Below, piece by piece: positions 5,231 through 59,240 of a stretch of 64,000 nucleotides of DNA. Numbering within the stretch: position 1 is the first letter of the stretch; each line of letters opens with the position of its first letter. The DNA is from Raillietiella orientalis (lineage: Eukaryota), in the NCBI GenBank assembly GCA_036172245.1, contig JAYWIR010000107.1, forward strand, positions 62,001 through 126,000, read 5' to 3'. The notes under the pieces are model-generated. The model saw only the letters and a list, made by a program, of their open reading frames with translations, was not told where the DNA came from and did no database searches. The position numbers and the translations under genes were made by a program.

Positions 5231-7431
5231 TTCATCACCCGGTCACGCCGGGGCGTTTATTAATAATAATAAACTGGTCAGGAACAATGTCCCTAACCAA
5301 CAGAACAACAAGGAACATAAAAAAATCACCGGCACGCAGGCCTGATAAACAAACCGCTCGCAGCGTGGGAGGAATGAGGGGAAACAAACAAAAATCAAAA
5401 ACTGTAGGGAAGGGGAACGGGTTTTTGGTTAGGCTCCGTACTCACGGGGATTATAACGACGAGCACCTGAAATGTTCCGGAGCCTATGGGGACGCGGGTA
5501 TAAAAAGAAAATACAAAATTAGTTTATGGAGGGTAGGGCAATGATCACCGGGCTGGCCGCTGCTGAGCGTGTGTAAATCGGCGGTGTATTGCGGCGAGAT
5601 TCCTTTTTGTCTCCTCTGTCAAATGAGGCCAACTAGCGGATGCTCCCATGTGGAAGGATGCTTTGCTGATTACCTCTTGATGCTGTCCGTTGATTACCAA
5701 CGCCTGGCGGACGGGAACTATCGCGCGTATTCAAGCGATGGTTGCAATCCTTGCGCTTAGGGACAGCCCGCTGGGCGTGCAGGATTGTCGCAGCAAGTCT
5801 CTTGCAGTGCCCAAGGGATGCACTAGTGCTGTTGCCAGCAAACGCTACAATCCATGTAGGATACCGCAGTCTAGAAGTAGGTGCAGGATCGACTCCGTCG
5901 ACCCGCAGCGAACCCAGTTCGCAGATGGAACTCCCCCGGAGTCTTGATGCCAACGCTCGTTACACCGAAAACCACAGTGAACTAAAAGCAGCACAAATTT
6001 TTGCCAAGCAAAAGGGAGCAGCGAACTGTCTACACACTGTAAAGAAACTACAGGTTCTTCTGGGGTGACAGCAAATTCTTGTGCCTACCTGAGGAGTCCC
6101 TTTGAAGTACAACGAGGAGTGGCGCGTCCGCCAAATCAATAGTCCTCCAGGCTCCGAGAAGTTTTCTTTTCGCCGCTATCGTGCAGGAAACCTACAACCT
6201 TGTTGGTTGGCAACTCTCGTTTCTTCCCCTAAAGGCAGACAGCGCTGCGGCGAGAGTCGAGGAAGCTAAGGTAGAAAAGTTCACCTCGTCCTGCACCAAT
6301 TCTTGCAAAGATCGCGGATGAAGACGGCGCAGTGCGCGAAGATCTTCAGAGCGCTTTCCTTGGAACACTGCATAGGATTCAACAAGCTCCTGCCGCCAAG
6401 CTTTGAAGTTCATTGGGCGGCAGGAGATCCACGAGTGAACTTCCAGAAGTGCGGTCAACTGCCGCAATGGAAACCCGAAATCCCGCTTTCTGTATTGGGT
6501 GCCCGGCAAAAGTGAGAGAAATCCTCCGCTGCCGGCGCATCTCGGAAGAAGAATGCGTGCTGGCACACACAGGGGGGATGTCCATAGCTGGGCACACAGT
6601 GCCAGCATTCGGAAGTGCACCTGCAGTCCGATTTGCTCCATTGTCAGGATACCCAAACCAGCATCCCGACGTGGAGAAACCAAATCTTTAAGGCGGATCC
6701 TGGATCTCGCCGGACAACAGAGAGAGTTCCTTAGCAGGCGTTTAGCCCGCTGTTTGGCCGCATAGGGTGGGTCCAAAACAAGAAACAGGGGACGGAGGAG
6801 GGTGGCAGCAAAAGTGTTCCAAATAGTCGCCCGTTCCTGCAAGGTAAACTTGCCGTTGAAGAACGGGCTGATCGCCAACACTGCTTCCTGAAGACAGTCC
6901 GCCTACGCTTCGGCTGCGCCGAAAGCGCTCAACCGAACGCCAAGGTACGTGAAGTACCCGCTTGTGAGGATCCCCAGGCAGAAACAGTCGGACTGCCCCT
7001 CCCACGACGTACCCACAGGGACGATCACGCTCTTCTCTCTGTTCACGCTCATGCCTGCTCCCCGACGAATCAGGTCGAGGAAATCCTCGACACTGGACGC
7101 CGGGGTGGACATGGGGAGCAGAAGAAGCAGGTCAGCAGCGTAGTCGGCCACGGCAGGCGTACCCGGGTAGGAGCTTCGCAAGTAAGAGAGCGTCAGCCTG
7201 TATGCTCCAAGCACCAACACAAAAAAGGTGCTGAAGAGTAAGGGTCTTAAGGTTTCACCTTGTCGAATGCCTATGCCCACGGGAACACCGTAGACGCGGC
7301 ATCCGCTGAAAGAAATACAGGTAAGCGCGTGGCGTCCGCTAGCGCGCAAGTAAAGCAGGAGATGCGCCGGAAATCCAATTGGTTCCAGAAGCTACAAGAA
7401 AAGCTTCTGGTTTACGCAGTCGACCGCCTTG
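5231..7431 (-). mobile_element. Family C copy C1, 3' segment (RT C-half to 3' end)
   Basis: GIRQGE, YAAD and post-RT homology; 3' signal AATAAA-CGC-CCCGG-CGTGA-CCGGG-TGA on minus strand at 5261-5235. Confidence 0.88.
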
Positions 7432-7444
7432 CGTGCTCCAGGGT

Positions 7445-7455
7445 GGACGTGTTTT
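7445..7455 (+). promoter_or_regulatory. Conserved 5'-terminal motif GGACGTGTTTT (candidate internal promoter element)
   Basis: Recurs within ~15 nt of the 5' end in families A, B, C and D, whose UTRs are otherwise dissimilar. Confidence 0.55.
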
Positions 7456-7527
7456 CTCGGTGCTCCTCGTGCCAGGAAGTCTCCCCCAGTGCAAGCGTCG
7501 TTTGGTTCGGCGGTCGATCAGGCAGCG

Positions 7528-9203
7528 ATGCCTGACGCGACCTCCAGAGATGGCCAGGGGGCAGCGGCAACGCCTCGCCCAGAGGCGATAAAGAGGCAAA
7601 GGGCGGCGGCAACGTCGCCCCCAGACGCGATGGAGGTGGGGGCATCCGCCCCTACAGAATCGGTCCCCGCTGCAGCGCGGGCGTGGAGCGCCGTTGTGTC
7701 GACGCCATCGCCTGCAGCCGCGATGGAATTGTCGGCCTATGAAGAGGAGGGGTACAACCCCTCATTGTTCTACAAGGTAGGCAATTTATATTCTTTGGAG
7801 AACGCGCGCAACTTCTCGGAGGGCATGCGCGCTCTCGATGTTAAAGAGGAGGAGCTGAGCGCTATGACCACCCGCAGCGAGGATCAGTACGTTGAGGTCA
7901 TCTGAAACAAGCAGAGCTGGCCCAACCACTGCTAAAAACCCCCGTGGTGATAAGGACGCGCAGGCTCCTCCCTATTACGGCGGACCGCAGCATGGTGGTT
8001 CACCTGTTGGGTGTCACCGCTCGGATGCGCAAGGAACAGGTTCGCGCCGCGTTGGAGGAATACGGAACGGTCAACGCGCAGTGCAAAAAAGGTAGTACTT
8101 TCAAGGACTACACGGAGCTGCAACACGGTTTCACTGCTGCGCGCGTGACCGTTCGCGAGGGCTGCACTCTTCCCCACAAACTGGTGGTCGAAGGCGAAAA
8201 CGTCGACCTCTGGTATGTGGGGAAGCCGAAATACTGTGGCTTCTGCAATACGTCGGGCCACCTCAAAAAGAGGTGTCCCAATGTGCAGTGCCAAGTATGC
8301 GGCACAATGGGCCACACGAGGGAGGTGTGCCCAAAAGCAGCAGTGCGGGTGGTTTCCAAGAGAAACCTTAAAAAACGCGCCCGGCTTCTGCAGAAAAGGC
8401 TAGCGGCGAAAGCTGCCGCGAAGGCTGTGCAACCCGCGTTCAAGACCCAGGCCGCACCCGAGATCCCGGTGACCGACGCCGAAAAAGTTGAGGGAGCCGG
8501 CCAAGAGACTGGGTGGCAAGTGGCAACGGCCAAAAAATCAAAGAACGAGAGGAGGATGGAAAAGAAAATCGCCTACCAACAGAAGAAGAAAGAGCAGGGT
8601 AGCGATATAATTAAAGAGTGCAACGTCGTTGTCGAACGCGTTCTCGATGTTGCCGAACGCTGCCGGAAAGAACTCGCCGCTACCGACGACCTCCCCTCTG
8701 TTGACACTGTCAACAGCGAGGGGAGCGAGCCGGCGGCGGCGTCCGTCATCGACACCACTATCGATGACGTAGCCTTCGCGCGAGCCGCGGAAGAGCTGGC
8801 AGCCTCGTTGCAGCCAGAACCCTCCAAGGCTGGCAAGAAGGCCGTATGGCGTCCGGCCTCCCCTCAGGAGTCCTCATCTTCCGACCCCGAGGTGGAGGCC
8901 GGAAGCGCAGCCTCCGTTTCCACGGCACCGCGCAAGAAGGCCGGACGTAAGTCCACAAAGTCAAGGAAGCTCGTCTCCCCCGTCGAAGGGGAAGAGTTGG
9001 CTTCCGAAAGCGAGGGTGCCATGAGCGTGGGAAACTCTCGGGACACGTCGCCCGAGAGACTCCCACGCGCGGACACGGAGGGGATGAAGGGTGTGGAGGC
9101 CGAACAGGTTCCTCAGGTGCCTGAGAAGGCCTTAACACCCATGGACATCCCACCCGCCTCGCAAGAGGAGGGCTCCCCCACACCTTAATCTTCCGAGCAG
9201 TAA
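7528..9203 (+). pseudogene. B1 ORF1 (two zinc knuckles), frameshifted
   Basis: AYEEEGYNPSLFYKV motif; CGFCNTSGHLKKRC and CQVCGTMGHTREVC; frameshift near 7905. Confidence 0.88.
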
Positions 9204-12200
9204 TGCCGGGAATCTCCTCCCGCCGTCGTCTGCGCATCGCCGTTTGGAACGTGAACGGCATGACAGACGCCGGCAGGAGACGAGACATGGCCGCCCTTCT
9301 GGAGTCCTACGACCTTGCGCTGCTGCAGGAGATCCACGTGATCTCTGCAGAACAAGCGCAAGAGATCGAACGGATCTCCGGAGGGGGGTATGGTACAGGT
9401 GTGGGAGAGCGAAAAGTTGCGGTGACGCCTACATGCTTCAGCCAGCCGTCGAGGCCGCGGCTCGGGGCGTGCGCTTCGACGATCACGGTCGTGTCGGTCA
9501 GCTGACTCTCAGGTGGTCCGACTCGACCGAACTGATCGTCACGTAGGTGTGCGCACCGAGAGGCGCGGACCTGATGACCAGGAGAGCGAGGAAAGAGTTT
9601 TTCCTTGCCCTGCATCGCGACTGGTTGACCGAGGCAGGCGTGCGAAATGCCCATCTGGTTGCAGGCGATTTCAAGGTTCGTCTGAAACCGGATGGGCCGA
9701 ATCACGAGCGTGACCTGGTCAACGAGGTGTGCGCGGCGGCGCACACTTGTAATTTGTTGGCAGGTGTACCAGGGATGGAGGACAACATCGATCACGTGTT
9801 CCTTGACGAGCATCTATGCACTCGTGTGGGCAGGCGCTCCATGTTGACGTGCGAGTTGTCCGACCATCGACCAATCGTGATTGAAATCCATCCGCGCAAC
9901 AGGGGCCTTTCCTCGACACCGTGGCGTTTGCCAGGGGACTGGCTGAAGCTCCCGGACTCGGCGGAACATCTCAGCACGTTCATACGGAGCTTCAGGCTGC
10001 GGAGACTCCACGATTGGGACCGCTTCAAGCGGTCGGTCCAGGAGTTCTGCGACCAGTTCCCTCTGCACCGCCTACCTACGGGTTTTGGGATCGGGTTCCT
10101 TAACGAACAAGCCTACTTGCAGGCTTGTCGTTACGCCAGTACCCGCGAAATCTGCAGGCTGGCGGAATACAAAGCGGGAGCCGAGAGGCAAGCCTGGCAG
10201 TGCGGATCGGCCAGCTTATTGGACGATCAAAGCCAGGAGCACTCGGCACCTCCCCAAATCCACTGCCTGCTGCGGAGTTACTACTCCTCTCTGCATGCCA
10301 GGGCACCTTTGGAGAGGAACGTCTAACGTGTTTTCCTTCCGGAAGGCACTCCAGCGTTCGGGGAGGAGCAGAGAAAGACCCTCGACGAGCCTTTCACGAT
10401 GGAGGAGATCCTCTCGGCCATCGGAAAGCTCAAGAGGCGAAATGCTCCAGGAGAGGAAGGCCTGCCCACGGAGTTTTATCAAACTTTCGCGGCTGAGCTT
10501 ACCCCCCTGGTACAGCAACTAACCTTGCTGATACGCGAAACAGGTGACGTTCCCTCCTCGTTTCGTTCGGCAAAGGTGCGGCTCCTCCCTAAGGGAGGAG
10601 TTCTGAGGAGCATGAACAACTGGCGTCCCATCACAATAGTGAATGCTGATGCCAAGTTGATAGATAAGGTTTAAGTTGAGCGTTTCGGACGGGTTCGCTA
10701 ACGCCTTCATCAGCCAGGAACAGAAGTATGCTGTTCCGGGGCGAAGCATAGGGGCGAACCTGTTCCACGCATCCACCTGGCTAGAGCTCCAAGATGAAAG
10801 GAGCTTCGTGCGCAGCCGGAATTTGGTGCGTGCGCCGGAAAGGGGTTGGATGATCGGGATAGGGGAGGGAGCCCTTTCGGTCGCAATCGACTTGCGAAAA
10901 GCATTCGATTGCGTCGACAAGAATCTCCTTCTGCAGCTTGTGGAATGCTTGGGCTTCATAGTCTCATTAGTGGCCTATCTGCGCTCCAGCTGGCGCGACG
11001 CGCTCATCAATGTTGCCTTCAGCGGGCAGACCGTGCACGGCGTGCCGGTTCGCCGTGGGATCCGGCAGGGAGACAGCCTCAGCCCCTTGTTCTTCAGTAC
11101 CTACCTTGAGTTGGTACTGAGAGCGTACAGGGGAACTCTGGCGCACCTGCCGCCCGAGTGTGCCGGTACGCCGGCCGTTTCAGCATACGCGGACGACCTT
11201 CTGCTGCTGCTCCCTATGTCCACCCCGGCTGCGGCGGTCAAGGAGTTCTTCGACCTGCTGCATCGGGGAACCGGACTTACGGTGAACAGGGCGAAGTCGT
11301 CCGTGATGCCAGTTGGTGCGGCGTGGGCAGGGCAGCAGGACTGGGTCCGTTTGGGGATCCCTACGGTGAGGTACTTCCAGTACCTTGATGTGCCGTTGGG
11401 GGACTACTCCCCTGCGGAAGCGTGGTCCGGCTGCCTTCAAAAAGTCGAGACGGCTATCGGTTCGTTCCGAGGCGGCAGGTTTTTCCTGCCTGAACGGGCC
11501 GAGGTTTGGAACACTTTCGCGGCTCCTCTCCTCCGTCCCCTGCTTTTTGTTTGCCCCCCCACAGAGAGAATTAAAAAGTGGACAAAGGACCTCCTCCGTA
11601 TCGACCTTTGGGGCAACGGGAGGGCCTGAGTCCGCTTAAAGGACTTTTGCGCTCCTCGTCGGGATGGTGATCTTGGCCTCCTGACGCTGGAGCGGCTGGA
11701 GCTTCAGCTCCAGTTCCGATTGTCGGCACACGTTCCAGAGTTTTGGTGCACCTGTTGGTGCATCCCTGCACGTCTCCTTCTCCAGCAAGCCACCGGCAAG
11801 TCGGGACTGACGTCGTTTCTTGCACTCCATCGAACCCGCATCAAGCGATGTGAGCTTCAGCTACGGAGGGTGGCTGCGCTGGCAAGGAAAAATTAAGAAT
11901 TGCACACCTCTCGCCCTTTGAACGTTAGTGCCTGGTTGCAGGAAACCGTTCGAACGTGGCGACAGTTCAGCATGCAACGCTCCCAACAGGAAGGAATGTT
12001 CGTGTTTGGAGGTTACAGAACTTGCACGCTACGCGAGATCCTGGATTATCCAAGGAAGAGAGCGTGGGCAGGAAGAACCCCCTTCGCTACTGCGCTGCCC
12101 TTCCTGATGGAAGATCTCGACAGCGATGTTGCGGCGAAGTGGGTGGTTACAGTAACCATCTCCGGAAAGGAGAAGAATGTAGAAGAGTGGACGACGGGTT

Positions 12201-12786
12201 AGTTAACAGACGCTGCGTCTACGAGTACGCCTCCCAATGGACTTCTGCGCTGGAGCGCGCTGCTCGATGTTCCCATTGAACATCTGAAGTGGCCCCCGGT
12301 GCTCATTAACTCTACCGCCCTCCGCTTAAAATGGCAGGAGTCGGCTCTCCAGTTGCAGCACTGGAAACTCCCCTGCAACGCCCGCCGGCATCACTGAACC
12401 TGGGGAGCGGTGGACCCAAATTGCGTCAGGTGTGGGGAACGGGATTCCCCCTCCTCCTGCTAGTAGAGTGTGTTGCCCTTCTGCCCCTTCGGTTCCGCTT
12501 TGCCGCGGCCATCGGAATCCCCTGCGGCAACCTCAGGGACGCACTAAAAGGCCTCTTCGTTGCCGACGCCCTTCGGCCAGCGGCCTCGTTAGCAGCTTTG
12601 TGCTGCCTACGCGGGATCGTCACCGCTTGCAGCAAGGCTACGGGAGGACAACGTGACCAGGGTGCCTTCCAGCCAGCCTTCCAGTTCCTGAGAAGGTCGT
12701 CCCGATGGCCCCACCTGGATCCAGGAATACAGAAGAAGCTTGCTGGCATTTTGCAAAGGATGCAACGGGTCCACCAGCAACTGTGA
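9203..12786 (+). pseudogene. B1 ORF2 (APE-RT-ZnF), multiple stops and frameshifts
   Basis: MPGISSRRRLRIAVWNVNG, LLQE, AGDF, IDH, SDH, WRPIT, DLRKAFD, GIRQGDSLSP, AYADD. Confidence 0.92.
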
Positions 12787-12973
12787 TCCCTTCCCTTATC
12801 CTCCCAACTTTTCTTTTCTTTTTTGTTTTGTTTTTTGTTTTTCCCCTTTCCCCCTGCTGCCTTGGTGGACCGTACCGGTCTGCGAACCGGTGAATCGGCA
12901 GACACTGTGTTTCTTCGTGCGTAACTGGAGCAATGGTCCAGCCACCGCACATCTTTGTAAAAGTTTATTTTAC

Positions 12974-13004
12974 AATAAACGCCCCGGCGAAATCCGGGTG
13001 AAAA
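12974..13004 (+). terminator. Representative 3' signal: AATAAA + 5-bp stem-loop + short A tail
   Basis: AATAAA CGC CCCGG CGAAAT CCGGG TGAAAA; 13 other copies or variants mark every LINE 3' end in the window. Confidence 0.85.
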
Positions 13005-14060
13005 TCGAACGCCTTGTGGAGATCGACCGCGATCGCAAAGGCATTTGCCGTATCCTCCTGCCGTCGGCGCCTCTCCTTCTTGCCTGCGGCAGTGACTTGC
13101 TCAGCAGCCTGGCTTTGCTGCGCCACAACTTCCTGCAGCTGCATCCATGTACGCACGAAAAGGATGTTCGTCTCCATGGATCGTCCCGGACCCGCGTAGG
13201 TTTGTTCCGGGCTCACCACAGATACCGCGATACTTCCTAACAGCGCGACCCACAGCTTGGAAAACACCTTGACGTCCGAGTTCACCAGGGTGATCGGACG
13301 CCAGTTGTTAAGTTGACGCAAGTCTCCGCCTTTCGGCAGGAGACGCACCTTCGCTGAATGGAAGGAATCCGGGACATTCCCAGATTCACTCATCAGCGTC
13401 GCGAGTTTCAGCATCAACGCAATGAGCTCCACTTCAAAGCACTGATAAAAGTCTTTAGGGAGCTCATCCTCGCCTGGCGCCTTTTGTCTTTTCAGCTCAG
13501 CGATGGCGAACGAAAATTCATCCGCCGTGAAGGGCTCGTTCAGACGTTCGCGTTCCTCCTCGCCGACAACACGAGCATCCTGAGACAGGAGTATCTCAGA
13601 GAGGATATCCTATGTCGGGGATACCGCGTACAGCGAGGAGTAGTAGCGTCTCCCGATGCGGCGTACTTCGGCTGGGGCCGAACATTCCTGGCCCTTGTCG
13701 TCCAACAGGCATGCTACTGCGGACTTCCAGACCTAACGCTCGGCCCTCGCCTTGTACTCTGCGAGACGCCCGACATCCGCGCGTCGCGAATATGTGCGGG
13801 CCTGCAGAAAGTCTCTACTGTTGGCCACGCCCTCTCCGTAACCGCGTGGAAGCCGGTGCAAGGGGAATTGGCAGCAGAACTCGCGGACAGATCTTTTGAG
13901 ATCGTCCCAGTCCGCAAGTTCTTGAATGGCAAAGCCTTGAAGGTATCCATATAGATGGTCCTCAGCCTCCGGTTGGCTAAGCCAATCCGCCTGCATCCTC
14001 CAGTTTTGCAACGGAGGCCCCCTGCCTGGCGGAAGGATCTCAAACTCCAACCTGTGGTGA
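13005..14060 (-). mobile_element. C1 middle segment (end of APE to RT AVDLHKAF)
   Basis: Collinear with 5231-7431 across the B1 TSD; motifs WRMQADW, WRPITLVNSDVK, AVDLHKAFD. Confidence 0.88.
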
Positions 14061-23888: not shown

Positions 23889-25395
23889 CTTACCCGTGTC
23901 CAGTGATGACGGCGTGAATTGCAGGGCAGTCCATAGTGCAACAGCAGCAGCGCCTAATCCTGCCATTTTAGGGGGAGGATTCTGGTTTCTGTTATTACTG
24001 GGGGCCACTTGAGCTCATCAGTCATGATGCCGAGCAGCTCGCCCCATTTTTTGAGTCCTTGCGGAAGGACGCTATGTTGAGGCGTCCACAAGCTGTCGCA
24101 CTGTCCAACCGCTCTTTAGGTTTTCGCTGCCTACGATACGATAAGAGACTTGCCACCTCGGCGTCCGGCTGCTCACGATTGTCCTACGTAGGAAGGGTAG
24201 CACCGTCGCCAGGCAAGTCGCCTCTTCCCACGTGCTTCTGGCGGGACACTTCACGATCTCGCGTAGAGTGCAGCGGGCGTATCGGCCGCGTCGCAGGCTA
24301 GTCCATGTCACGTAACTCATCTTATTCACTACAGCCCACGTGCCAACTGTTTCATTCAGCCATGCGCTGGAGTTGACGGGGCGGCAGATCATCCAAGCAT
24401 TCTCCCTCGCCATGGTGGCTACTCGTCCCAGCAGATGTCCGAATCTTCTTGTCTTCCTTCCACGACATTAAAGAAGCGATGCGAGTCCTTCCGTTCCGGA
24501 TACACGTGTGGCGAGTGAGGGACAGGGAGCACACCAGGGAGTGCTCCACATCTTGGCTGCGATCGCCAAGGATCGCAATCGCAGCTGAATTTCCATGCGC
24601 TCCAGCATCAGGAGGCCTAGTTCACCATCACGACGCGAAGAGCACAAGTATATCAAAGGGACTCGGGGCCTCCCCTTGCCCTAAAGGTCGATGCGCAGGA
24701 GGTCGTTGGTCCTCTTTTTTGATTCTTCGAGGACGGGGCAAACAAAAAGTAGGGGGCGAAGGATGGGAGCCCCTAAAGCGTTCCATACTGCGGCCCGTTC
24801 CGGCAAGTAAAACTTGCCGTTTAGGAACGGGCGAATCGCCAAATCCACCTTCTGAAGATCGCCTGACCATGCTTCTGACGGGCAGTAGTCCTCTAGAGGA
24901 ACGCCAAGGTACTTCAGATGTGTGTCAGTCGGGATCCCCAGGCGGATCCAGTCAGGCCGTCCTACCCACGTCGCTCCAGCTGTCAACATCGACGAAATTG
25001 CTCTGTTGACCCGTAGCCCTGTCCCAAGGCTTAGCAAGTCGGAGAAATATTCGACTGCGGTTGCAGGGGAGGAAATTGGGAGCAGTAGCAGGAGATCGTC
25101 GGCATATGCAGCCACGGCAGGCGTACCGGGACATGAGCTTGGCAAGGCAGCCAAAGTCATCCTGTATGCTCTCAGCACCAACTTCAAATAGGTGATAAAG
25201 TGGAGGGGACTGAGGCTATCGCCCTTTTGAATCCCGCGGCGCACCGGCACGCAGTACACGCTCTGCCCTCTCAAAGATATGTTTGTTAACGCGGCTCATC
25301 AGCAGGAGCGCAGGTACGCCGTTAATGTAGGAGGGAAGCCCATACGATGCAGAAGCTCCAGCAGGAGCTCCTGGTCCACGCAGTCGAACTCCTTT
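23889..25395 (-). mobile_element. A-related LINE fragment A4 (RT KEFD to HWTR)
   Basis: GIQKGDSLSP, AYADD and post-RT homology to A1; both ends are cut by other insertions. Confidence 0.85.
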
Positions 25396-26570
25396 TGTGC
25401 TCCAGGGTGGATGTGTTTTCTCGGTGCTCCTCGTGCCAGGAAGTCTCCCCCAGTGCAAGCGTCGTGTGGTTCGGTGGTTGCTCAGGCAGCGATGGCTGAC
25501 GCGACCATTAGGGATGGCCAGTGTGCAGCGGCAACGCCGCCCCCAGAGGCGATGGACAGCCAGGGGGCGGCGGCAACGTCGCTCCCAGAGGCGATGAAGA
25601 TCGGTCCCCGCTGCAGCGCGGGCGTGAAGCGCCGTTGTGTCGGCGACATCGCCTGCAGCCGCGGCAGAATTGTCGGCCTATGTAGAGGAGGGGTACAACC
25701 TTTCATTGTTCTACAAGGTAGGCAATCTATATTCTTTAAAGAGCGCGCTCGCCTTCTCGAAGAGCATGCGCGCTTTCGATGTGAAGGAGGAGGAGCTCAG
25801 CGCTATGACCATCCGCAGCAGGGGTCAGTACGTTGAGGTCATCTGCAAACAAGCAGAGCTGGCCCAACGACTGCTTAAAACCCCCGTGGTGATCGAAACG
25901 CGCAGGCTCCTCCCTATTACGACGGACCGCAGCATCGTGGTCCACCTGTTAGGTGTTACCGCGCGGATGCGCAAGGAACAGGTTCGCGCCGCGTTGGAGC
26001 AATACGGAACGGTCCACGAGCAGTGGACGAAAGTTAGTCCTTGCGAGAACTACACGGAACTGCAACACGGCCTCACGGCTGCGCGCGTGACCGTTCGGGA
26101 GGGCTGCACTCTTCCCCACAAACTGGTGGTCTTAGGCGAAACCGTCGACCTCTGGTATGTGGGGAAGACGAAATACTGCGGCTTCTGCAATACGTCAGGC
26201 CACCTCAAAAAGAGGTGTCCCAACGTGCAGTGCCAAATATGCGGCACAATGGGTCACACGAGGGAGGTGTGCCAAAAAGCAGCAGTGTGGGTGGTTTTCA
26301 AGAGAAGCCTTAAAAAACGCGTCAGGCTGCTGCAAAAGAAGCTGGCGGCGAAAGCTGCCTAGAAGGCTGTTCCACCCGCACCCAAGGCCCAGGCCGCACC
26401 CGCGACTTCGGCGAACAACGCCTAACAGGTCGAGGGAACTAGCCAGGAGCCTAAGTGGCAGGTATCAACAGCCAAGAAAACAAAAAAAGAACGAAGATTA
26501 AAAAAAAAGCTCGCGTACCGCCAGAAAAAACAGCAGACAAGATAGCAAATGAAAGAATGCAGCGTTATCG
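25396..26570 (+). mobile_element. Family B copy B2, 5' part (5' UTR and most of ORF1)
   Basis: Closely similar to 7432-8630 from the first bases (GTGCTCCAGGGTGGAyGTGTTTTCTCGG); two zinc knuckles. Confidence 0.92.
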
Positions 26571-39000: not shown

Positions 39001-39256
39001 GCAAGGAAAATTTTTTTCCTGGCCCTCCTGTTCGTCAGGTCCGCTCCGCTCGGAGCGTAAACGTTCGTGACGATCAGGTCGATCGAGTCGGACCAACTGA
39101 GAGTCAGCTGGCCGACACGACCGTGATTGTCGAACCGCACTCCACGGGCGGCGGCCTCGATGGCGGGCCGAAGCAGGTAGGCGACACCACAACTTCTCGA
39201 TGTTCTACACCGATACCACAGCCGCCCTCCGGATTTGCGTTCGATCTCCTGCGCTC
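36070..39256 (-). mobile_element. Family B copy B3 (APE to 3' end, internal deletion)
   Basis: Homologous to B1 9350-13004; linker deleted at ~38685; terminus AATAAA-CCA-CCCGA-AGAATT-CCGGG-TGAAAA. Confidence 0.9.
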
Positions 39257-40615
39257 GTACAGTGCAGACGTGTTTGCGCGTCTATCCGCGCCAACGATCG
39301 GGCAACTTTGTGCCTGCGTTTTTGCTCGCACTTGTGTGTTCCTGTGCAATCTGCCAAGTAGCATAGTGCAACATGGCCAGTACACAGGATAGTGTGGAGG
39401 AGCAAGCCACTGGATGCACTTCAGCTGCACTTGAAGTGGCCGCATCCTCCGTAATGGTTTCCTCGCCCCCGGTGAGGAGTTACGCCGTTGTTACCTCCCA
39501 AAGACCAGGACCCTGCGATGCGGAGTTCCAGGCATATGTGTCATCAGGATACATGCCTGCACTCCGTTATAAGGTCAGTGGGCCACTTAACGGGAGAATC
39601 GTTCGTGAGCTCAATGATGAGCTCGTCCGGATAGGCGTTCGCGAGGAGGAACTCCTTGCCATAATGCCTGCTGGCAGGATGGAATATACGAAGATTCGGT
39701 GCAAGAACGCAGCACTTGTGCAGCGCCTTCTCCGTACGCCGTTGACCTTCAATGGCAAGGAAGTCCTACCTACCGCGATGGACGACTCTTTTGTCGTTCA
39801 ATTGTGCGACATCGAACCGGAAATCTCCGACCGCGATGTCGTAAGTGTGCTGGCGATGTTCGCCGCCGTGCACGCTCTGTGGAGGAGGCCAAATCCTCTA
39901 AAGGATTTCCCCTCTGTCCACATTGGACAAGCCTCCGCAAGGATCACCGTCGCGAACAGGCGTGTTGTGCCTGAGCAGCTGCAGGTGAACGGCACGGTCG
40001 TTCACCTGTGGTTCATAGGCCAGACTCGCGCGTGCGAGCAGTGCGGCAAGGATGGGCACCGGCGAATCGAAAGAAAGAAACATCAAAGCTTTTAAAAGCG
40101 TTGCGAAAACCGCGACCACGCACGTGCAGAAAACTGTTTTTCGGCCCCACAAAGAAGGGGTGAAAAACAAAAAAACTTGTTGCGGCAAAGCCTCCGGCTA
40201 TCGACTCGAACGAAGCTTGCGAAGAATGCGACCTTTCTACGAGACCTCCAGCCAATTGTTGAATGCAGGAGACATTGTGCTGAAGGTCAAAGAGCCTCCT
40301 ACTGTCGGCATCACTACTGGGAAGCCTCGTATCAAGGCGTCGACGAGCGACGCGGAATGCGGTCCTTCGCTCGATACGGGAAAAACGCGCCCGCGGGCAA
40401 AGAACACCGAGCCGTCTGAAGCTACCGCGGACAAGGTGCCCCAAGCGCCGAGTTCCCGGCAAATCCGTAGTTCTCGCGCGCGGACGCAGCGCCTAGTGCG
40501 GCCAAGGAAGAAACTGCGAGGGCGAGCACAACCGCTACAGCAGTGCCCCGTACGGTCGCAAAGGCAACGCGCGAACCCTCCGATCTGGAAGAGGCAGCGG
40601 CTCTCGCGATCGCTA
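39257..40615 (+). mobile_element. Family D LINE, 5' segment (ORF1 from ATG 39373)
   Basis: 5' motif AGACGTGTTT; AYVSSGYMPALRYKV; CEQCGKDGH; interrupted by G1. Confidence 0.87.
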
Positions 40616-44270: not shown

Positions 44271-44283
44271 AAAAGGGGAAGAC

Positions 44284-46010: not shown

Positions 46011-46330
46011 GACGATGGCCTTACTACTCCACCAACTCCAGATGCCTGCATCCTGGCAGCTGTTCCGAATGCTCAGGACGACTGCAGAACTTCCACCGTG
46101 GACTTCTCGGCGCTGCTGCTGATGATGATGTTGGTCCCCTGTTGCACTCTTTCCACACTGGCGTTCACTCAAACACTTGCCCTCTCAGGGCACTCAAAAA
46201 TTGCCTTGGCAGTGGTTTTAAACACTGCCTTGGCGGGGTATTGGGTATAGTTTCAAACTAGCAATAACCACGCTTCCCTTTCGTTCATCGGTTCCGATAC
46301 CGCCCGTGCGCAAGGCTCTCGCGATTGCTA

Positions 46331-52095: not shown

Positions 52096-52097
52096 CT

Positions 52098-54989
52098 TCC
52101 CTGCTCGATGAAAAAGGCCTGGAATGCGCGGCACCAGTCAGTATTCGCCGCATAATAAAAACTTATTACTCCTCGCTATACGCGGAAGCACCAACGGCAA
52201 TTATCTTTTCGGAGATACTGCTTTCCCAGGTTGCTGCCGTAGTTAGCGAAGAGTAACGCTCACGTCTCGACGAGTCCTTCACGGAGGAGGAAATTTCCTC
52301 CGCAATAGCGAAGCTCAAGAGACGAAAAGCGCCTGGCGAGGATGTGCTGCCTGCGTAGTTTGATCAGTGCTTCCCAAGGGAGCTCGTCCCCCTGGTGCAT
52401 CGTCTCTCGTCGCTGATGAGGGTTCCGGGGAATGTCCCCAACTCCTTCCGTTCCGCGAGGGTGCGTCTCCTTCCGAAAGGTAAAGACGCACGCCATTTAA
52501 ACAACTGGCGTCCGGTCACTTTGGTGAACTCGGACGTCAAGTTGTTCTCCAAGATGTGGGTTGCGCGCCTAGGTAGAATCGCGCCGTCCTTGGTGAGCCT
52601 GGAGCAGACTTACGCTGCTCCCGGGTGATCCATTGACGCGAACCTCCTGTTTGCACGCACCTGGATGCAGCTGCAGGAGCGCGTAGCGCAGCAAAGTCGA
52701 TCCGTGACAAATGCCACTGCTAAAGGCACACGTTATCGACAGAAGCGGCAAGAGGGTACGCCGGGTGCCTTGGCGGTAGCTGTCGACCTCCACAAAACGT
52801 TCGATTGCGTGTACCAAGCGCTCCTATTGGAGCTTTTGGAACGCCTGTGTCTCCCGGCTCAACTCCTCAAGTACGTGCGTGCATGCTGGCGCCACGCGCT
52901 AACTTGCATTTGTTTTAGTGGCTGCCACGTGCACGGTATTCCCGTGCGCATGGGCATCAGGCAGGGTGACAGCTTAATCCCGTTGCTCTTCATCATCTTC
53001 TTTGAGTTGGTGCTGAAAGCGTACAGGCTGACGCTGGAATACCTGCCTAGCTCTTGCCTGGGAACGCCTGTTGTGACTGCCTATGCAGATGACCTGCTTC
53101 TTCTGCTCCCCATGTCCACCCCGGCGTCCAGTGTCGAAGATTTCTTCGATCTGATTCGTCGGGGAGCGGGCGTGGGCGTGAACAGAGAGAAGAGCGTGGT
53201 CGTTCCTGTGGGTGCGTGGTGGGAGGGGCAGTACGACTGGATCCGCCTGGGGATCCCCACGGCGGGGTACTTCAAGTACCTTTGCGTTCCGTTGGGCGAC
53301 CTCGGCGCTGCCGAGGCGTGGTCGGACTGCCTTCATGAGGCCGAGTTGGCCGCCAGCCCGTTCATGAACGGCAAGTTCACCTTGCCGGAACGGGAGGCTA
53401 TTTGGAACACCTTCGTGGCCCCCCTCCTCCGGCCGCTCTTTTTTGTCTTGAACATCCCCTATGCGGCCAAAGAGCGGGTAAAACGCCGGCTAAGGAACAC
53501 TGTCTGGGGTCCGGCGCGATCCAGGATCCGCCTGAAAGACCTCATTGCTTTACGTCGTGATGCTGGGCTTGGCATCTTGATGGAGAGTATCGGACTGGAA
53601 GTGCAGTTCAGGATGCTCGCACTTTGTGCCCAGCTATGTACTTCCCTCCTATGTGCGCCTGCGCGCATCCTCCTGAGGAGGTGTGCAGGCAGTGAAGGAT
53701 TACTTTCTTTAGTGCCTGGCTTGCGTCACAGGAAACAGAAATTTGGCTATCCTTTGAGATAAATCGCCACCCTATTGGAAGAAAGTACGTGGATTACCTG
53801 CCGCCCAATGAACTATAATGCTTGGAAGCAGGAATCCATTGATTCGCGGGCTGCATTCTTAGGAATGAGCCGTGAAGATCTTTACCCCCTGCGTCGATTT
53901 CAGCCTTGGTCACTCCAAGATGTCATGCAGGACGAGGTGAAGCTTTCCTTCTTGTCCGCCACCCCCCTTGACGAAGCACTGTCTGCCCTCGAGGCTCGAG
54001 ATGACAGTAGCCAGCCGGCAAGGTGGAAGTTCTCCAGCACCATTGCAGGAAGAACAAAACCAGTTGGCGAATGGACCACGAGCGAGCTTGCGGATGCCGC
54101 CACTCCTCGTGCTACACCAAAGGGGTTTCTTTGGTAAGGAGAAGCTCTTGGTGTTGTTCCCGAAGAAGTTATAGTCCCTCCCTGGTGTTTGGACGGTTCG
54201 GTGTTTCCCCTTGCATGGAAGCAAGGCGTTTTGCTTTTCTTGCACTAAGGATTGCGCTACAACGAGCGGCGTTATTGAGTTTCCGGTGGGGGGACTTCTC
54301 CCTACTGTGACCGGTGCGGAGCGACGGAGTCGTTCCAGCACCTTCTTATGGACTGCGGTGCCCTCCAGGAACTGTGGAGGAGGCTAGCAGCAGCTCTCCC
54401 GTCACCAGGAAACACCGCTCGAGAAGTGTTGCGACGGTTTTTCTAGACACAAGGACTTTCGATGGCTGCGACGATTTCCACTGTTGGTTGCATCCGCGCC
54501 ATCGTCACGGTCCGAAACGTGCTGGAGAATACTGGACAGCAATGTTGTGTCACCAGGAAGACAGCTGACTTCATCAGGTCGGCAGCTGCGTGGCGAGACT
54601 TATATGAAGACACAACGGAGGAGCTAACCGGTATCCATCGCCGGATCAGCAAGGGCTTAGAAAGACGAAATCGGTGATGCGCCCTCATTGTATTTTTGAT
54701 TGGTTTTTTTGTTCTCGCGTCCTTTTCCCTGTACGCTCCGCAGTCCTTTTGGTGCTAGAACTTCTGAGTTTCCCGGTAAGTGCGGAGCAACACCAATGTT
54801 CCCTGGGCCCACTCCTCTCATTTACAGTTTTTTTTTTTTTTGGCTCCCTCAGTCGTCAATGTTCTTCCGTTTTCCTAGCCTGCGTGCCAGGGGTGAAACT
54901 CCGCTGCATGTTTTCATAGTCGAGAGCTGGAAACAATTGTTTCCAGCTCGTTTATATCAATAAACGTCCCAACGTGATCGGGTGAAAAA
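52098..54989 (+). mobile_element. Family C-like copy C3 (linker to 3' end)
   Basis: DLHKTFD, GIRQGD, AYADD; protein similar to C1; terminus AATAAA-CGT-CCCAA-CGTGA-TCGGG-TGAAAAA. Confidence 0.9.
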
Positions 54990-57900
54990 TTTCAACGTTC
55001 GCCTGAAACCAGATGGGCAGAATCCCGAGCGTGACCTGGTCAACGAGGTGTGCATGCCGGTGCACACCTGTAATTTGTTGGCCAGTGCACCGTGGATGGA
55101 AGACAGCATTGACCACGTGTTTGTTGACGAGCACCTGTGCCCTCGCGTGGGCAGGTGCGGCAAGTTATTGTGCGAGCTGTCCGACCATCGCAGGATAGTC
55201 CTCCAGATCCATCCGCGCGACAGGGGCCTCCTTTCGTCAGCGTGGCGTCTCCCAGGGGACTGACTAAAGCTTTCGGACGCGGCGGAACATCTCCGCACGT
55301 TAGTACGGAGCTTCAGGCTGCGGACACTCCAGGATTGGGACCGCTTCAAGCGTTCGGTACAGGAGTTCTGCGACCAATTTCCTCTGCACTGCCTAACTAC
55401 GGGTTTTAGGACCGAAGTCCGTAACGAACTAGCCTATCTGCAGGCCCGTCATTACGCCACAACCCCCGGCATCCGCAGGCTGGCGGAATACAGAGCGAGA
55501 GCCGATAGGCAAGCCTGGCAGTCCGGAACGGCCAGTGTGCTGGACGATCAGGGCCAGGAGCACTCGGCACCCGCCCAAATTTGCAACCTGCTGCGGAGTT
55601 ACTACTACTCCCTATATGCCAAAGCACCTCCAAAGAGGAACGTCTTACGACTCCTACTTCCGGAAGGCGCTTCAGCGATCGAAGAGGAGGAGAGAAAGAC
55701 CCTCGACGAGCCTTTCACAATGGACGAGATCCTCTCGGCCATCGGAAAGCTCAAGAGGCGCAAGGCTCCAGCGGAGGACAACCTGCCCACGGAGTTTTAC
55801 CAAACTTTCGCGGCTGAGCTTACCCTCCTGGTACAGCAACTCACCTTGCTGATACGCGAGACAGGTGACGTTCCCGCCTCGTTTCGTTCGGCATAGGTAC
55901 GGCTCCTCCCTAAGGGAGGAGATCTGAGGAGCATGAACAGCTGGCGTCCCATCACAATAGTGAATGCGGACGCCAAGTTGCTGGCTAAGGTTTGGGCAGA
56001 GCGTCAGGGACGGGTTGCCAACATCTTCATAAGCACGGGACAGACATATGCTGTTCCCGGGCGAAGCATGGAGGCGAACCTGTTCCACGCTTTTACTTGG
56101 CTAGAGCTCCAACAAGAAAGGAGCTTGGTGCGCAGCCAGAATTCTGGTGCGTGCGCCGGCAAGCGGTCGGATGGTCGGGTGAAGGAGGGAGCCCTTGCAG
56201 TCGCAGTCGACTTGCGGAAAGCATTCGATTGCGTCGACGAGAATCTTCTTCTGGAGCTTCTGGAAAGCTTGGGCTTCCCGGCCTCATTAGTAGCATATCT
56301 GCGCTCCTGCTGGCGCGACGCGCTAATCAACGTTACTTTCAGCATGCAGACCGTGCACGGCATGCCAGTGCGACTTGTGATCGGGCAGGGAGACAGCCTG
56401 AGCCCCTTGCTCTTCAGTACCTACTTTGAGTTGGTACTGAGAGCGTACAGGGGAACTCTGGCGCACCTGTTGCACGACTGTGCCGGTGCGCCGGCCGTTT
56501 CAGCGCACGCGGACGACCTTCTGCTTCTGCTCCCTATGTCCACCCCGGCTTTGGTGGTCGAGGAGTTCTTCGATCTGCTGCATCCGGGAACCGGACTTAC
56601 GGTGAACACGGCGAAGGCGTCCGTGTTGCCATTTGGTGCGGCGTGGGCAGGGCAGCAGTACTGGTTCCGTTTGGGGATCACCACGGTGAGGTACTTCAAG
56701 TACCTTGGTGTGCCGTTCCGGGACTGCTCCCCTGCGGAAGCGTGGTTCTGCTGCCTCCAAGAAGTAGAGACGGCGATCGGTCCGTTCCGAGGCGGCAGGT
56801 ATTTCCTGCCTAAACGGGCCGCGGTGTGGAACACGTTCGAGGCTGGTCTCCTCCGCCCCTGCTTTTTGTTTGCCTACGCGCAGAGTGATTTAAAAAGTGT
56901 ACAAAGGACCTCCTTCGTATCGCCCTTTGGGGTAACGGGAGGGTCCGAGTCTGCTGAGAGGACTTGTGCGCTCCTCGTCTGGACGGTGGTGTGGGCCTCC
57001 TGACGCTGGAGCGGCTTTAGCTTCAGCTTCAGTTCCGAATTTCGGCACTTGTTCCAGAGTTGTGGTGTACCTGTTGGTGCGTCCCTGCACGTCTCCTCCA
57101 GCAAGCGACCGGCAAGACGGGACTGACGTCGTTTCTTGCACTCCGTCGCCGCGTCCACCGATGCGGACTCCAGCTACAAAGGGTGGCTGCTCTGTACCGG
57201 AAAAACCCAGGATTGGTCACCTGTCGCCCTTTGGACGGTAGTGCCTGGTTGCAAGGAACCGTTCGAACGTGGGGACAGTTCGGCATGCAACGCTCCCAAC
57301 AGGAACGAAGGTTCCTGTTTGGGGGTTACAGAAGTTGCACGCTCCGTGAGATCCTGGAGAATCCAAAGAAGAGAGCGCTGGCAGGAAGAACACCCTTCGC
57401 TGCTGCGCTGCTCTCCCTGGTGGAATATCTGGACAGCGATGTTGCAGCAAAGTGGGAGGTTACAGTAACAATCTCCGGGAAGGACAAGAAGATAGGAGAG
57501 TGGAAGACGGGTCAGCTAACTGACGCTGCCACCCCGAGTACGTCTTCCCATGGACTTCTTTGCTGGGGCGCGCTGCTCGACGTTCCCATTGAACGTCGAG
57601 CAACGTTCATTAGTATCCTCCGGTACTAATGAACACCTCCACTCTCCCCTTAAAATGGCAGGAGTCGACTCTCCTGTTGCAGCACTGGGGACTCCCCTGC
57701 AACGCATGCCGACACCCCTGGACCTGGGAAGCGGTGGACCCCAACTGCGTCAGGTGTGGGGAACGGGAGTCCCTCCCTCACATGCTAGTGTATTGTGTTG
57801 CCCTTCGGCCCCTTTGGTTTCGCTCCGCCGCGGCCATAGGCATCCCCTGTGGCAACCCTAGGGACGTCCCTAAAGCCCTCTTCGTTGCCGACGCCCTTCG

Positions 57901-58328
57901 GCCAGCGCCCTCGTTAGCAGCTCTGTGCTGCCTTCGCTGGATCGTCTCCGCCTGGAGCAAGGCTACGGGAGGACCACACGAGCAGGGTGCCATCCAGGCA
58001 GCCTCCCAGTTGCTGAGGAGGGCGTCGCGATGGCCCTACCTGGATTCAAACATGCAGCAAGAGCTTGCCGGCATCCTGCAAAGGATGCAACGGCCCCACC
58101 AGCAACTGTGATCCCTTTCTTTACCCTCCCAACTTTTCTTTTCTTTTTTGTTTTGTTTTTTGTTTTTCCTCCTTGCCCCTGCTGCTGTGGTGGACCGTAG
58201 CGGTCTGCGAACCGGTGACCCGGCAGGCTCTGTGTTTCCACGTCCGTGGCTGGAGCAATGGTCCAGCCACTGCACGTCTTTGTAAATGTTTATTAAACAA
58301 TAAACTCCCGGCAAAATCCGGGTGAAAA
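54990..58328 (+). mobile_element. Family B copy B4 (from APE FNVRL to 3' end)
   Basis: Homologous to B1 9669-13004; terminus AATAAA-CT-CCCGG-CAAAAT-CCGGG-TGAAAA. Confidence 0.92.
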
Positions 58329-59240
58329 TCGAACGCTTTGTGGAAGTCGACTGCGACCGCCAAGGCACCTGACGTTCCCTCCTGCCTTCTGCGCCTGTTC
58401 TTTTGGCCTGCGGCTGCGACTTTCGCCTCAGCCAGGCTTTGCTGCGCCACGACTTATTAAAGCTGCATTCAGGTGCGCGCGAAAAGGATGTTCGCCTCCA
58501 TGTATCGTCCGGAAACCGTGTAGGTTTGTTCCAGGCTTACCACAGATTCCGCGATACTTCCTTACCGCGAGACCCATGGCTTGAAAAACAACTTGACGTC
58601 TGAGTTCACCAAGGTGATCGGACGCCAGTTGTTAAGTTGGCGGTTGTCTCCGCCTTTCGGCAGGACACACACCTTCGCTGAGCGGAAGGAATCCGAGTCG
58701 TTCTCGAATTCCCTGTTCAGTGTCGCGAGTCTCAGCATCAAGGGGATGAGCTCCACTGCAAAGCACTGATAAAACTCTGCGGGGAGTCCATCCTCGCCCG
58801 CGCCTTTGGTCTCTTCAGCCCAGCAATGGCGGACGAGAACTCATCTGCCGTGAAGGGCTCGTTTAGACGTTCGCGTTCCTCCTTGCCGACGACAGGAGCA
58901 TCCTTTGACAGGAGTATCTCAGGGAAAATGTCCTCCGTCGGGGATTCCGAGTACTGCAACAAGTAGTAGCGTCTCACAATGTGGCTTTCTCTGTCTGGGT
59001 CCGGACATTTCTGGCCCTTGTCGTCCAACAGGCATGCTGTTCCGGACTGCAAGACCTGACACTGGGCCCTAGCCTTGTACTCCGCGATACTCCTGACATC
59101 CGTGCGTCTAGAAAACGTGCGAGACTGCAGAAACTCTCTGCTGTTGGCTACGCCTTCTCCAAAACCGCGTGGAAGCCATTGCAAGAAGAATTCGCAGCAG
59201 AATTTGCGCACAGATCTTCTGAGATCGTCCCAGTCCGCGA
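58329..59240 (-). mobile_element. Family C fragment C4 (linker to RT AVDFHKAF)
   Basis: Homologous to 13005-13915. Confidence 0.88.

What the first reader, a model, noticed from the sequence alone, without database searches (positions are those of the whole stretch)
7420..58340. Family B LINE repeatedly inserts antisense at one nucleotide of the RT 'AVDLxKAFD' motif of sibling LINEs
Seen: every visible end of family B lies in the same host site, always opposite to the host strand. B1 has TSD TCGAmCGCCTTG (7420/13005; host C1). The B2 5' flank is GCAG-TCGAACTCCTTT (25384; host A4). The B3 3' flank is TCGAATGGTTTG (36069; host F2). The B4 3' flank is TCGAACGCTTTG (58329; host C4). Consensus target: CGCAG^TCGAAyGCyTT, the antisense of K-A-F-D-C. 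Three different host families imply at least three independent events; B1/C1 and B4/C4 could be a single old duplication. Established: Tx1-clade APE LINEs can be sequence-specific (Tx1L into Tx1D, Keno into U2 snRNA, Dewa, Mutsu). Inference: B targets the most conserved stretch of its relatives' RT, giving it a multicopy safe-haven site while destroying competitors.
Basis: partly seen in the sequence, partly recalled or inferred. Interest (0 to 1): 0.92.

Follow-up and report, generated by a model that had tools for sequence, protein, structure and literature searches.

The report
LINE that inserts into sibling LINEs' RT motif
One family of jumping genes (a LINE retrotransposon) has landed at least three separate times, backwards, at exactly the same nucleotide inside the reverse-transcriptase gene of three different related LINE families, which points to a sequence-specific element that uses, and breaks, its own relatives as landing sites.

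Summary
The window is a LINE-only nest (APE + RT elements, GC about 57%). Family B has four copies. All 5 natural ends still visible (B1 5' and 3', B2 5', B3 3', B4 3') lie at one nucleotide of the RT motif-A codons (K-A-F-D^C; sense strand TTCGA^CTGCG), always antisense to the host. B1 has a 12-bp target-site duplication.

Identity steps sharply at the junctions: 63-74% on the host side against 85-97% inside B for B1/B2, and about 67% against about 80-83% for B1/B3. ML trees place the occupied hosts in three well-supported clades (C, A, F). That gives at least three independent insertions. B1/C1 and B4/C4 are equally diverged inside and outside B, so they may be one event that was later duplicated.

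None of 6 non-B 3' ends lies at this site, although every family shares the same 3' terminal hairpin ending in ...GGGTGAAAA.

One public run adds a contig with an empty C-type site, and one contig that looks like a 5'-truncated B at the same host position.

Best reading: a site-specific APE-type LINE of the L1 superfamily that targets a conserved coding motif of sibling LINEs. This is a new variant of TE-targeting LINEs such as Tx1 or Zepp. No genome was held, so a genome-wide junction census was not possible.

The parts
7432..13004 (+). B1, a full-length but frameshifted family-B LINE. It has an ORF1 with weak CCHC hits, then APE, then RT, and a 3' hairpin ending ...TCCGGGTGAAAA.
   Evidence: Pfam RVT_1 at 10664-11626; weak Exo_endo_phos hit at 9125-9502.
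7420..7431 (.). Left copy of the 12-bp target-site duplication of B1 (tcgaccgccttg).
13005..13016 (.). Right copy of the 12-bp target-site duplication of B1 (tcgaacgccttg).
5825..7431 (-). Host C1, the part of its RT/ORF2 downstream of the site. It is antisense to B1.
   Evidence: aligned to 54397-52798 at 72.8%; clade with c52800.
13005..14060 (-). Host C1, the RT part upstream of the site, ending ...AVDLHKAFD at the junction.
25397..26565 (+). B2, the 5' 1.2 kb of a B copy (B1 positions 2-1195). It is cut at about 26566 by the 3' end of a later (-) C-type LINE.
23893..25396 (-). Host A4 (A family), the RT part downstream of the site. It ends TCGAACTCCTTT(T) at the B2 5' junction.
   Evidence: clade with A1 and c21798, support 95/97.
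36070..39268 (-). B3, a B copy covering B1 positions 1913-5573 with an internal 459-bp deletion at 38684. Its 3' end is at 36070. Its 5' side is cut by another LINE's 5' end at about 39269.
34323..36069 (+). Host F2 (F family), from APE to RT motif A, ending ...IDLHKPFD at the B3 3' junction.
   Evidence: clade with F1, support 100/99.
54989..58328 (+). B4, a B copy covering B1 positions 2237-5573. Its 5' side is cut by the 3' end of a C-type LINE (C3) at 54988.
   Evidence: RVT_1 at 55897-57000.
58329..59241 (-). Host C4, the RT part upstream of the site. It is 83% identical to C1.
2728..2744 (+). An unoccupied perfect target (AAGGCGTTCGA^CTGCGT) in copy A1. Other empty sites lie at 21803, 28626(-), 31597, 48697, 52804 and 62124(-), and in B's own RT at 10908, 38164(-) and 56228.

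Best explanation
Family B is an APE-type non-LTR retrotransposon of the L1 superfamily. It integrates by target-primed reverse transcription at one defined sequence: the sense strand of the RT motif-A codons (K-A-F-D-C) of related LINE families.

Shown:
- The primer strand is the host sense strand, ending ...TTCGA-3'. It is joined directly to the cDNA of B's 3' end (...CCGGGTGAAAA).
- The second-strand break lies 12 bp upstream and produces a 12-bp target-site duplication.
- Full-length copies start at one nucleotide (GTGCTCCAGGG...).
- The element is always antisense to the host.
- At least three hosts from three families were hit.

Inferred:
- The site is chosen by the element's own protein, most probably the APE nuclease, as in the R1, TRAS and Tx1 lineages. 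It would have to read at least about 8 nt around TTCGA^CTGCG.
- Read-through B transcripts that carry the antisense motif downstream of their 3' end may help to position the primer.
- The outcome is a multicopy landing site whose disruption costs the cell nothing but inactivates the host LINE copy.
For: - 5 of 5 natural B ends lie at the same nucleotide and strand.
- B1 has a 12-bp TSD, and its flanks are contiguous in an intact relative. A contig of run X1 bridges 7272 to 13133 with 272 letters between, where 275 are expected for an empty site.
- Identity steps at the junctions. B1/B2: host 63-74%, first 60 nt of B 97%. B1/B3: B 82.9% over 2630 bp, host 60-72%.
- The hosts sit in three supported clades: C1 with c52800 100/98, A4 with A1 and c21798 95/97, F2 with F1 100/99. 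The B copies are monophyletic, 100/100.
- 0 of 6 non-B 3' ends are at the site (4819, 15971, about 26566, 33701, 54988, 59989), although all families share the 3' hairpin and GAAAA end.
- Short-core counts show that a 5-6 nt preference cannot explain 3 of 3 hits: (13/141)^3 = 8e-4 and (6/46)^3 = 2e-3.
- B has an APE. B3's APE ORF is 52% identical to A1's APE (E 6e-66), and A1's APE hits Pfam Exo_endo_phos. Human L1 ORF2p is the best solved relative for APE and RT.
- Run X1 has one contig that joins host position 7432 to B position 12509 with 4 extra letters, as a 5'-truncated B at the same host site would. This is weak: one contig, 32 letters on the short side.
Against: - There are only three (at most four) independent events, all from one 64-kb window, and no genome-wide census.
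- All B copies are old (81-90% identical to each other) and frameshifted, so activity and nuclease specificity cannot be read from an intact gene.
- B has no extra DNA-binding domain relative to its non-specific siblings. Its APE is no more diverged than the siblings' APEs are from each other: 52% against 48-58%. Nothing in the protein sequence points to the specificity determinant.
- At least 3 sites matching TTCGA^CTGCGT are empty (A1, F1, c62134), and one non-RT TTCGACTGCG at 25054 is empty.
- B1/B4 may be one event.
Confidence: 0.78

Rival explanations
1. A single ancient B insertion was spread to other LINE copies by segmental duplication, ectopic recombination or gene conversion that used the conserved motif as homology. 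Under this reading there were no repeated retrotranspositions.
For: B1/C1 and B4/C4 are equally diverged inside B (84-92%) and outside it (76-88%) through 13918/59241, as expected for a duplication. The region is a heavily rearranged repeat nest.
Against: Against B1, the host flanks of B2 and B3 are only 60-74% identical right up to the junction, with no rise near it, so there is no co-converted tract. The hosts belong to three well-supported clades. Recombination between sequences about 70% identical is inefficient (established knowledge). The TSD-side 12-mers of B2 and B3 differ at 5 of 12 positions, and A4 is not of F2's family. The B copies differ in age, at 81-90% pairwise.
Confidence: 0.06
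2. B has only a short nick-site preference (for example TTCGA) plus a regional preference for the LINE cluster, of the chromatin or centromere type seen with Zepp. The three coincident hits are then an accident of a small sample.
For: The whole window is LINE DNA, so any insertion lands in a LINE. Perfect sites remain empty. Zepp and ZeppL elements are described as targeting existing copies or centromeric clusters (passages read in PMC8226300 and PMC3446292).
Against: TTCGA occurs 141 times and TTCGAC 46 times in the window, with only 13 and 6 of these at RT sites. Three of three hits therefore has p of about 8e-4 to 2e-3, before requiring the same orientation and the same 12-bp second nick. 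Other families in the same nest insert at unrelated sequences: 0 of 6 at the site.
Confidence: 0.07
3. Specificity is mainly RNA-guided. B copies sitting in a KAFD site produce read-through transcripts whose 3' extension (UCGAACGCCUUG...) is complementary to the sense-strand primer ...CAAGGCGTTCGA-3' at any other KAFD site. Annealing, rather than the nuclease, would then fix the exact start, as proposed for co-transcribed R1 and R2 elements.
For: The flank directly behind every B 3' end is the reverse complement of the primer strand of the target. The passage read in PMC4494074 states that co-transcription with the target can strengthen target-specific integration. B's APE shows no unusual divergence and no extra domain.
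Against: A nick at that position is still needed. The 5' junction, which reflects the second nick 12 bp away, is also exact in B1 and B2, and RNA annealing does not explain that. No transcript data are available. Sibling families with the same 3' end are not site-specific.
Confidence: 0.09

Closest known systems
Tx1-clade sequence-specific APE LINEs: Tx1L into the Tx1D piggyBac element, Tx1-Mar into Mariner-N4_AMi, Tx1-8_Crp and Tx1-4_AMi into LTR retrotransposons, Keno into U2 snRNA genes (passages read in PMC4494074 and PMC4640811)
   Same: These are APE-type LINEs. They insert at a defined sequence of a multicopy target, in one orientation, with precise 3' junctions. The target can be another transposable element.
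   Different: Here the target is a protein-coding catalytic motif (RT motif A) of sibling LINEs that share B's architecture and 3' end, and the hit spans several families. Clade membership was not tested. The nearest named relatives are plant-type and human L1 at 26-30% identity. The Tx1 clade is described in PMC4494074 as found in animals, and the organism here is unknown.
Zepp / ZeppL L1-type LINEs of green algae, which form nested clusters at putative centromeres (passages read in PMC8226300 and PMC3446292; Higashiyama 1997 is not held)
   Same: They form LINE-only nests built by insertion of LINE copies into existing LINE copies. The clusters are GC-rich and the architecture is L1-like APE, RT and zf-RVT.
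   Different: The passages I read give no nucleotide-exact target in the RT motif for Zepp. Zepp arrays are described as tandem 3' ends. Here the elements end in a hairpin plus GAAAA rather than a long poly(A), and only one of several co-resident families is site-specific. Only one weak hit to a Chlorella vulgaris protein was found (E 6.9e-7 over 21% of the query).
R1 / TRAS / SART (R1-clade APE LINEs with sequence-specific endonucleases), recalled; R1Bm abstract seen in the search listing for PMC1919474
   Same: An APE nuclease is taken to determine a precise target. Both strands are cut at fixed positions, giving a constant TSD.
   Different: Their targets are rDNA or telomeric repeats, not transposon genes. 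R1Bm and TRAS1 endonuclease structures did not appear among the PDB matches at E <= 0.01, whereas L1 endonuclease did.

Membership tests
APE-type non-LTR retrotransposon (LINE), L1 superfamily | An apurinic-like endonuclease domain N-terminal to the RT in ORF2. | tested here: met
   B1 9125-9502 hits Exo_endo_phos at 1.1e-4, which is below Pfam's cut-off. B3's APE ORF is 52% identical (E 6e-66) to A1's APE, which passes Pfam at 2e-9. RVT_1 hits in B1 (1.7e-12) and B4 (2e-15).
APE-type non-LTR retrotransposon (LINE), L1 superfamily | Target-site duplication and 5' truncation, as expected of TPRT. | tested here: met
   B1 has a 12-bp TSD. A 5'-truncated sibling D1 starts at 14060. A possible 5'-truncated B appears in run X1.
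APE-type non-LTR retrotransposon (LINE), L1 superfamily | Closest solved or named relatives are L1 ORF2 proteins, with a C-terminal zf-RVT. | tested here: met
   Human L1 ORF2p is the best PDB match for both the APE/linker region and the RT. zf-RVT hits in siblings D1 and F1, and a weak one in B4 (E 0.0099, below cut-off).
APE-type non-LTR retrotransposon (LINE), L1 superfamily | 3' poly(A) tail (typical of L1; recalled). | tested here: not met
   All 8 aligned 3' ends finish with a 5-bp hairpin plus GTG(A/G/T)AAA(A), with no long A run.
Tx1 clade | The RT groups with Tx1 reference elements in a phylogeny. | not testable with these tools
   No Repbase or Tx1 reference sequences were available. 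One distant hit of the unrelated G-family RT carries a source name 'Transposon TX1...' at 32% identity, which says nothing about B.
Tx1 clade | Sequence-specific insertion into a repeated target. | tested here: met
   5 of 5 natural ends are at one site, and at least 3 events are independent.
Zepp / ZeppL | Phylogenetic affinity to Zepp elements. | not tested
   No Zepp sequence was at hand. The only hit from that group of organisms is a weak match to a Chlorella vulgaris protein.
Zepp / ZeppL | Nested LINE-in-LINE clusters free of genes. | tested here: met
   Among 222 ORFs of 110 aa or more, the only Pfam hits at E <= 0.001 are Exo_endo_phos, RVT_1 and zf-RVT. Multiple nested insertions were mapped.
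R2-type (restriction-like endonuclease) site-specific LINE | A PD-(D/E)xK restriction-like endonuclease C-terminal to the RT, and no APE. | tested here: not met
   The APE lies N-terminal to the RT. The R2 proteins in the PDB match only through the RT domain.

The most novel reading that the evidence does not exclude
B is a dedicated 'hyperparasite' LINE. Its only landing site is the catalytic-motif codons (K-A-F-D) of competing LINE lineages. The hosts cannot change that sequence without losing RT activity, so B both gains an inexhaustible, harmless target and knocks out rivals. Its precision may be reinforced by read-through RNA that base-pairs with the nicked motif, a homing-like RNA guide. 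Such an element would help build and police LINE-only (possibly centromeric) clusters.
Probability: 0.2. Interest if true: 0.85.

Novelty: new variant of a known kind. Interest (0 to 1): 0.62.

Why it matters
Sequence-specific LINEs are known for rDNA, snRNA and tRNA genes, telomeres, microsatellites and a few DNA or LTR transposons. A LINE whose target is the active-site coding motif of its own relatives would be a clear case of transposon-on-transposon parasitism and competition. It would also suggest how LINE-only nests of the Zepp type could grow. It would add an L1-like nuclease (or nuclease plus RNA) that reads a target of roughly 8-17 nt, which is of interest for programmable TPRT insertion tools. 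The claim is directly testable by a junction census in the source genome and by a nicking assay.

Tried and rejected
- Whole genome: none is held for this window, so no genome-wide census was possible.
- Metagenome contig scans. The B-specific 3'-end pattern gave 0 matches. The generic 3'-hairpin pattern gave 19 loci, none with tblastn similarity to the window's ORF1, APE or RT (0 of 19). They are chance matches.
- Protein searches. The B1 RT, A1 RT and G-family RT returned only distant relatives (at most 37% identity over part of the query) and did not identify the organism or clade.
- Earlier findings of this scan: nothing by place, sequence or words.
- Sequencing runs: only one run, with a share of 0.13. 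Its contig starting exactly at 13005 (record 5) could not be interpreted, because the orientation of the remaining 2693 letters is not given.
- B2 and B3 as two halves of one rearranged insertion: rejected. A4 is 71% identical to F1 while F2 is 87% identical to F1, and the two TSD 12-mers differ at 5 of 12 positions.
- Self-immunity of B. Its own site reads TTCGA^TTGCG or TTCGA^CAGCG. Occupied versus empty by the +1 to +3 sequence is 2 of 5 against 0 of 6, Fisher p about 0.18 by my own count. This is not significant.
- A B-specific extra domain or accelerated APE divergence: none seen.
- Papers: Higashiyama 1997 (PMC1169995) and Yamamoto 2003 (PMC169880) are not held. Four searches found no paper describing a LINE that targets a LINE RT motif. 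Supplements of the Chlamydomonas papers were not read and may hold target-site data for ZeppL.
Full report
**What the window is.** The 64-kb window (GC 53-64% in 2-kb bins) consists of LINE copies nested in one another. I scanned 222 stop-to-stop ORFs of 110 aa or more against Pfam. The only families found at E <= 0.001 were Exo_endo_phos (APE), RVT_1 and zf-RVT. Self-comparison shows many copies that are 65-73% identical between families and 80-93% within families. Among solved structures, human L1 ORF2p is the best match for both the APE/linker part and the RT. The nearest database proteins are plant-type or environmental APE-RT-zf-RVT proteins at 26-30% identity. The elements therefore belong to the L1 superfamily in the broad sense. 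The organism is unknown, and no genome is held for the window.

**The B copies.** With B1 (7432-13004) as query, blastn finds only three other pieces of more than 100 bp at 80% identity or better:
- B2: 25397-26565 (+), B1 positions 2-1195
- B3: 36070-39268 (-), positions 1913-5573, with an internal 459-bp deletion
- B4: 54989-58328 (+), positions 2237-5573

B1 is flanked by tcgaCcgccttg and tcgaAcgccttg. Its left and right flanks align to one uninterrupted relative (52100-54397) with overlapping ends, which makes it a clean insertion with a 12-bp TSD.

The B2 5' junction, the B3 3' junction and the B4 3' junction fall on the same nucleotide of the host RT. The host is on the opposite strand each time. 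Read on the host sense strand, the site is AA(R)GCGTTCGA^CTGCGT, which encodes K-A-F-D^C of RT motif A. The three B breaks that are not at this site are later insertions of other LINEs:
- the reverse-complemented 3' hairpin of a C-type copy at about 26566
- a LINE 5' end followed by an ORF1 start at about 39269
- the 3' end of copy C3 at 54988

So 5 of 5 natural B ends are at the site.

**Independence of the events.**
- Across the B1/B2 5' junction, identity is 63-74% on the host side in all six bins of the last 500 nt. It jumps to 97% in the first 60 nt of B and stays at 85-91% further in.
- Across the B1/B3 3' junction, B is 82.9% identical over 2630 bp. The host side is 60-72%, again with no rise next to the junction.
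- Pairwise matrices and ML trees of the 450 bp upstream and 600 bp downstream of the site place C1/C4 with c52800 (100/98; C1+C4 100/99), A4 with A1 and c21798 (95/97), and F2 with F1 (100/99). The three B RTs form their own clade (100/100).
- B2 shows only a 5' junction and B3 only a 3' junction, so I asked whether they could be halves of one rearranged insertion. They are not. A4 is 71% identical to F1, whereas F2 is 87% identical to F1. The two 12-mers that would be the TSD differ at 5 of 12 positions.
- B1/C1 and B4/C4 are equally diverged inside B (84-92%) and outside it (76-88%) through 13918/59241. I count them conservatively as one event.

This leaves three independent events in three host families.

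**Chance and controls.** The window offers about 128,000 position-and-strand choices and about 14 homologous RT sites. Two further hits on the same nucleotide and strand are expected with a probability near 1e-8.

A weaker null is that B only needs a short nick motif. TTCGA occurs 141 times (13 at RT sites) and TTCGAC 46 times (6 at RT sites), so three of three hits has p of about 8e-4 to 2e-3. From 8 nt on (TTCGACTG: 6 occurrences, 4 at RT sites) the motif becomes nearly diagnostic of the RT site.

As an internal control, the other families end with the same 3' structure: a 5-bp hairpin with all 5 pairs kept in at least 6 of 8 sequences, then GTG(A/G/T)AAA. Yet 0 of 6 non-B 3' ends abut the motif. 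Seven non-B RT sites and B's three own sites are unoccupied, including three perfect TTCGA^CTGCGT sites.

**Outside evidence.** Only one public run (coded X1, share 0.13) holds related sequence. Laying its contigs at 80% likeness or more gave 319 pieces.
- One contig bridges 7272 to 13133 with 272 letters between. A C-type copy with an empty site would give 275.
- One contig joins host position 7432 to B position 12509 with four extra letters, as expected for a 5'-truncated B at the same host position. This rests on one contig with 32 letters on the short side, so it is weak.
- Two metagenome scans found nothing related.

**Mechanism.** The junction geometry fixes the strand that primed cDNA synthesis. 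It is the host sense strand ending ...TTCGA-3', joined to the complement of B's ...CCGGGTGAAAA end. The second break is 12 bp upstream on the other strand. Both nicks are exact in independent copies, and full-length copies start at one nucleotide. This is the signature of the sequence-specific APE LINEs of the R1 and Tx1 lineages, where the nuclease is held to choose the target (passages in PMC4494074 and PMC4640811).

I therefore favour nuclease-determined recognition of at least about 8 nt. B shows no extra domain relative to its siblings. Its APE is not unusually diverged: 52% amino-acid identity to A1 and F2, against 48-58% among non-B families. The determinant is therefore not visible in sequence.

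A contributing or alternative mechanism is RNA guidance. The DNA directly behind every resident B copy is the exact complement of the primer strand at any other KAFD site. Read-through transcripts could therefore anneal there, as has been argued for co-transcribed R1 and R2 (statement read in PMC4494074). No RNA data were available to test this.

**What is not supported.**
- The target 17-mer is highly conserved (0.90) but ranks 65th of 1209 windows in the RT core of 7 non-B copies. Several stretches are more conserved.
- 'Tx1 clade' is an analogy, not a tested membership.
- 'Destroying competitors' and 'safe haven' are reasonable but untested.
- A possible self-immunity of B (own site TTCGA^TTGCG or TTCGA^CAGCG) is not significant with these numbers.

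**Comparison and novelty.** LINEs that target other transposons are known: Tx1L into Tx1D, Tx1-Mar into Mariner-N4_AMi, and two crocodilian Tx1 families into LTR retrotransposons (PMC4494074, passages). Zepp and ZeppL LINEs are described as nesting into existing copies at green-algal centromeres (PMC8226300 and PMC3446292, passages). The original Zepp papers are not held.

In four full-text searches I found no description of a LINE whose target is a coding motif of the RT of sibling LINEs. I rate it a new variant of a known kind.

**Verdict.** At least three independent events are well supported. Genome-wide specificity and the mechanism remain to be shown.

Noticed in passing
window 4780-4819, 12965-13004, 15933-15972, 33662-33701, 36070-36109(-), 54949-54988, 58289-58328, 59989-60028(-); variant at about 26566-26600(-): All LINE families in the nest share a 3' terminus: AATAAA, a 5-bp CCCGG/CCGGG hairpin, then GTG(A/G/T)AAA(A), with no poly(A) tail. 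This suggests a common 3'-end recognition signal and possible cross-mobilisation between families.
   Followed up: partly
window 40755-44435 (-): A much more divergent LINE (family 'G'). It has an open 442-aa RT ORF (RVT_1 5.9e-27) and a 302-aa APE ORF (2.5e-16), only 27-30% amino-acid identity to the other families, and motif A reading ENAFD. It is probably the least decayed element in the window.
   Followed up: partly
window 14059-15974 (+) and 59986-61900 (-): These are the two most similar copies in the window (92.9% identity). D1 is a 5'-truncated copy inserted antisense into host C1 at 14060. D2 is the 3' part of the longer copy that carries the intact site at 62124. Their 3' flanks are unrelated, so this family is not site-specific.
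   Followed up: partly
window about 26566 and 54988: C-type LINEs inserted into B copies. One is in B2 at B position 1195, antisense. The other is in B4 at B position 2237, same strand. The nesting therefore goes both ways, and B is not the youngest family.
   Followed up: partly
window 38683-38684: B3 lacks 459 bp (B1 positions 2496-2954) between its APE and RT parts. This is an internal deletion.
   Followed up: no
window 16526-17851 (-) and 39269-40092 (+): ORF1-type proteins with CCHC zinc knuckles (P0027), and a LINE 5' end whose first bases (GACGTGTTTGCG) resemble B's 5' region (GGACGTGTTTTCTCG). This hints at a conserved 5' promoter element across families.
   Followed up: no
window 33701/33702-34322: F1's 3' end abuts, head to tail, the ORF1-like 5' region that leads into F2's APE ORF. 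This is a tandem arrangement reminiscent of the arrays described for Zepp.
   Followed up: no
whole window: There is no non-LINE protein domain in 64 kb. This is a LINE-only, GC-rich nest that could be a centromere-type cluster, but its chromosomal position is unknown.
   Followed up: no
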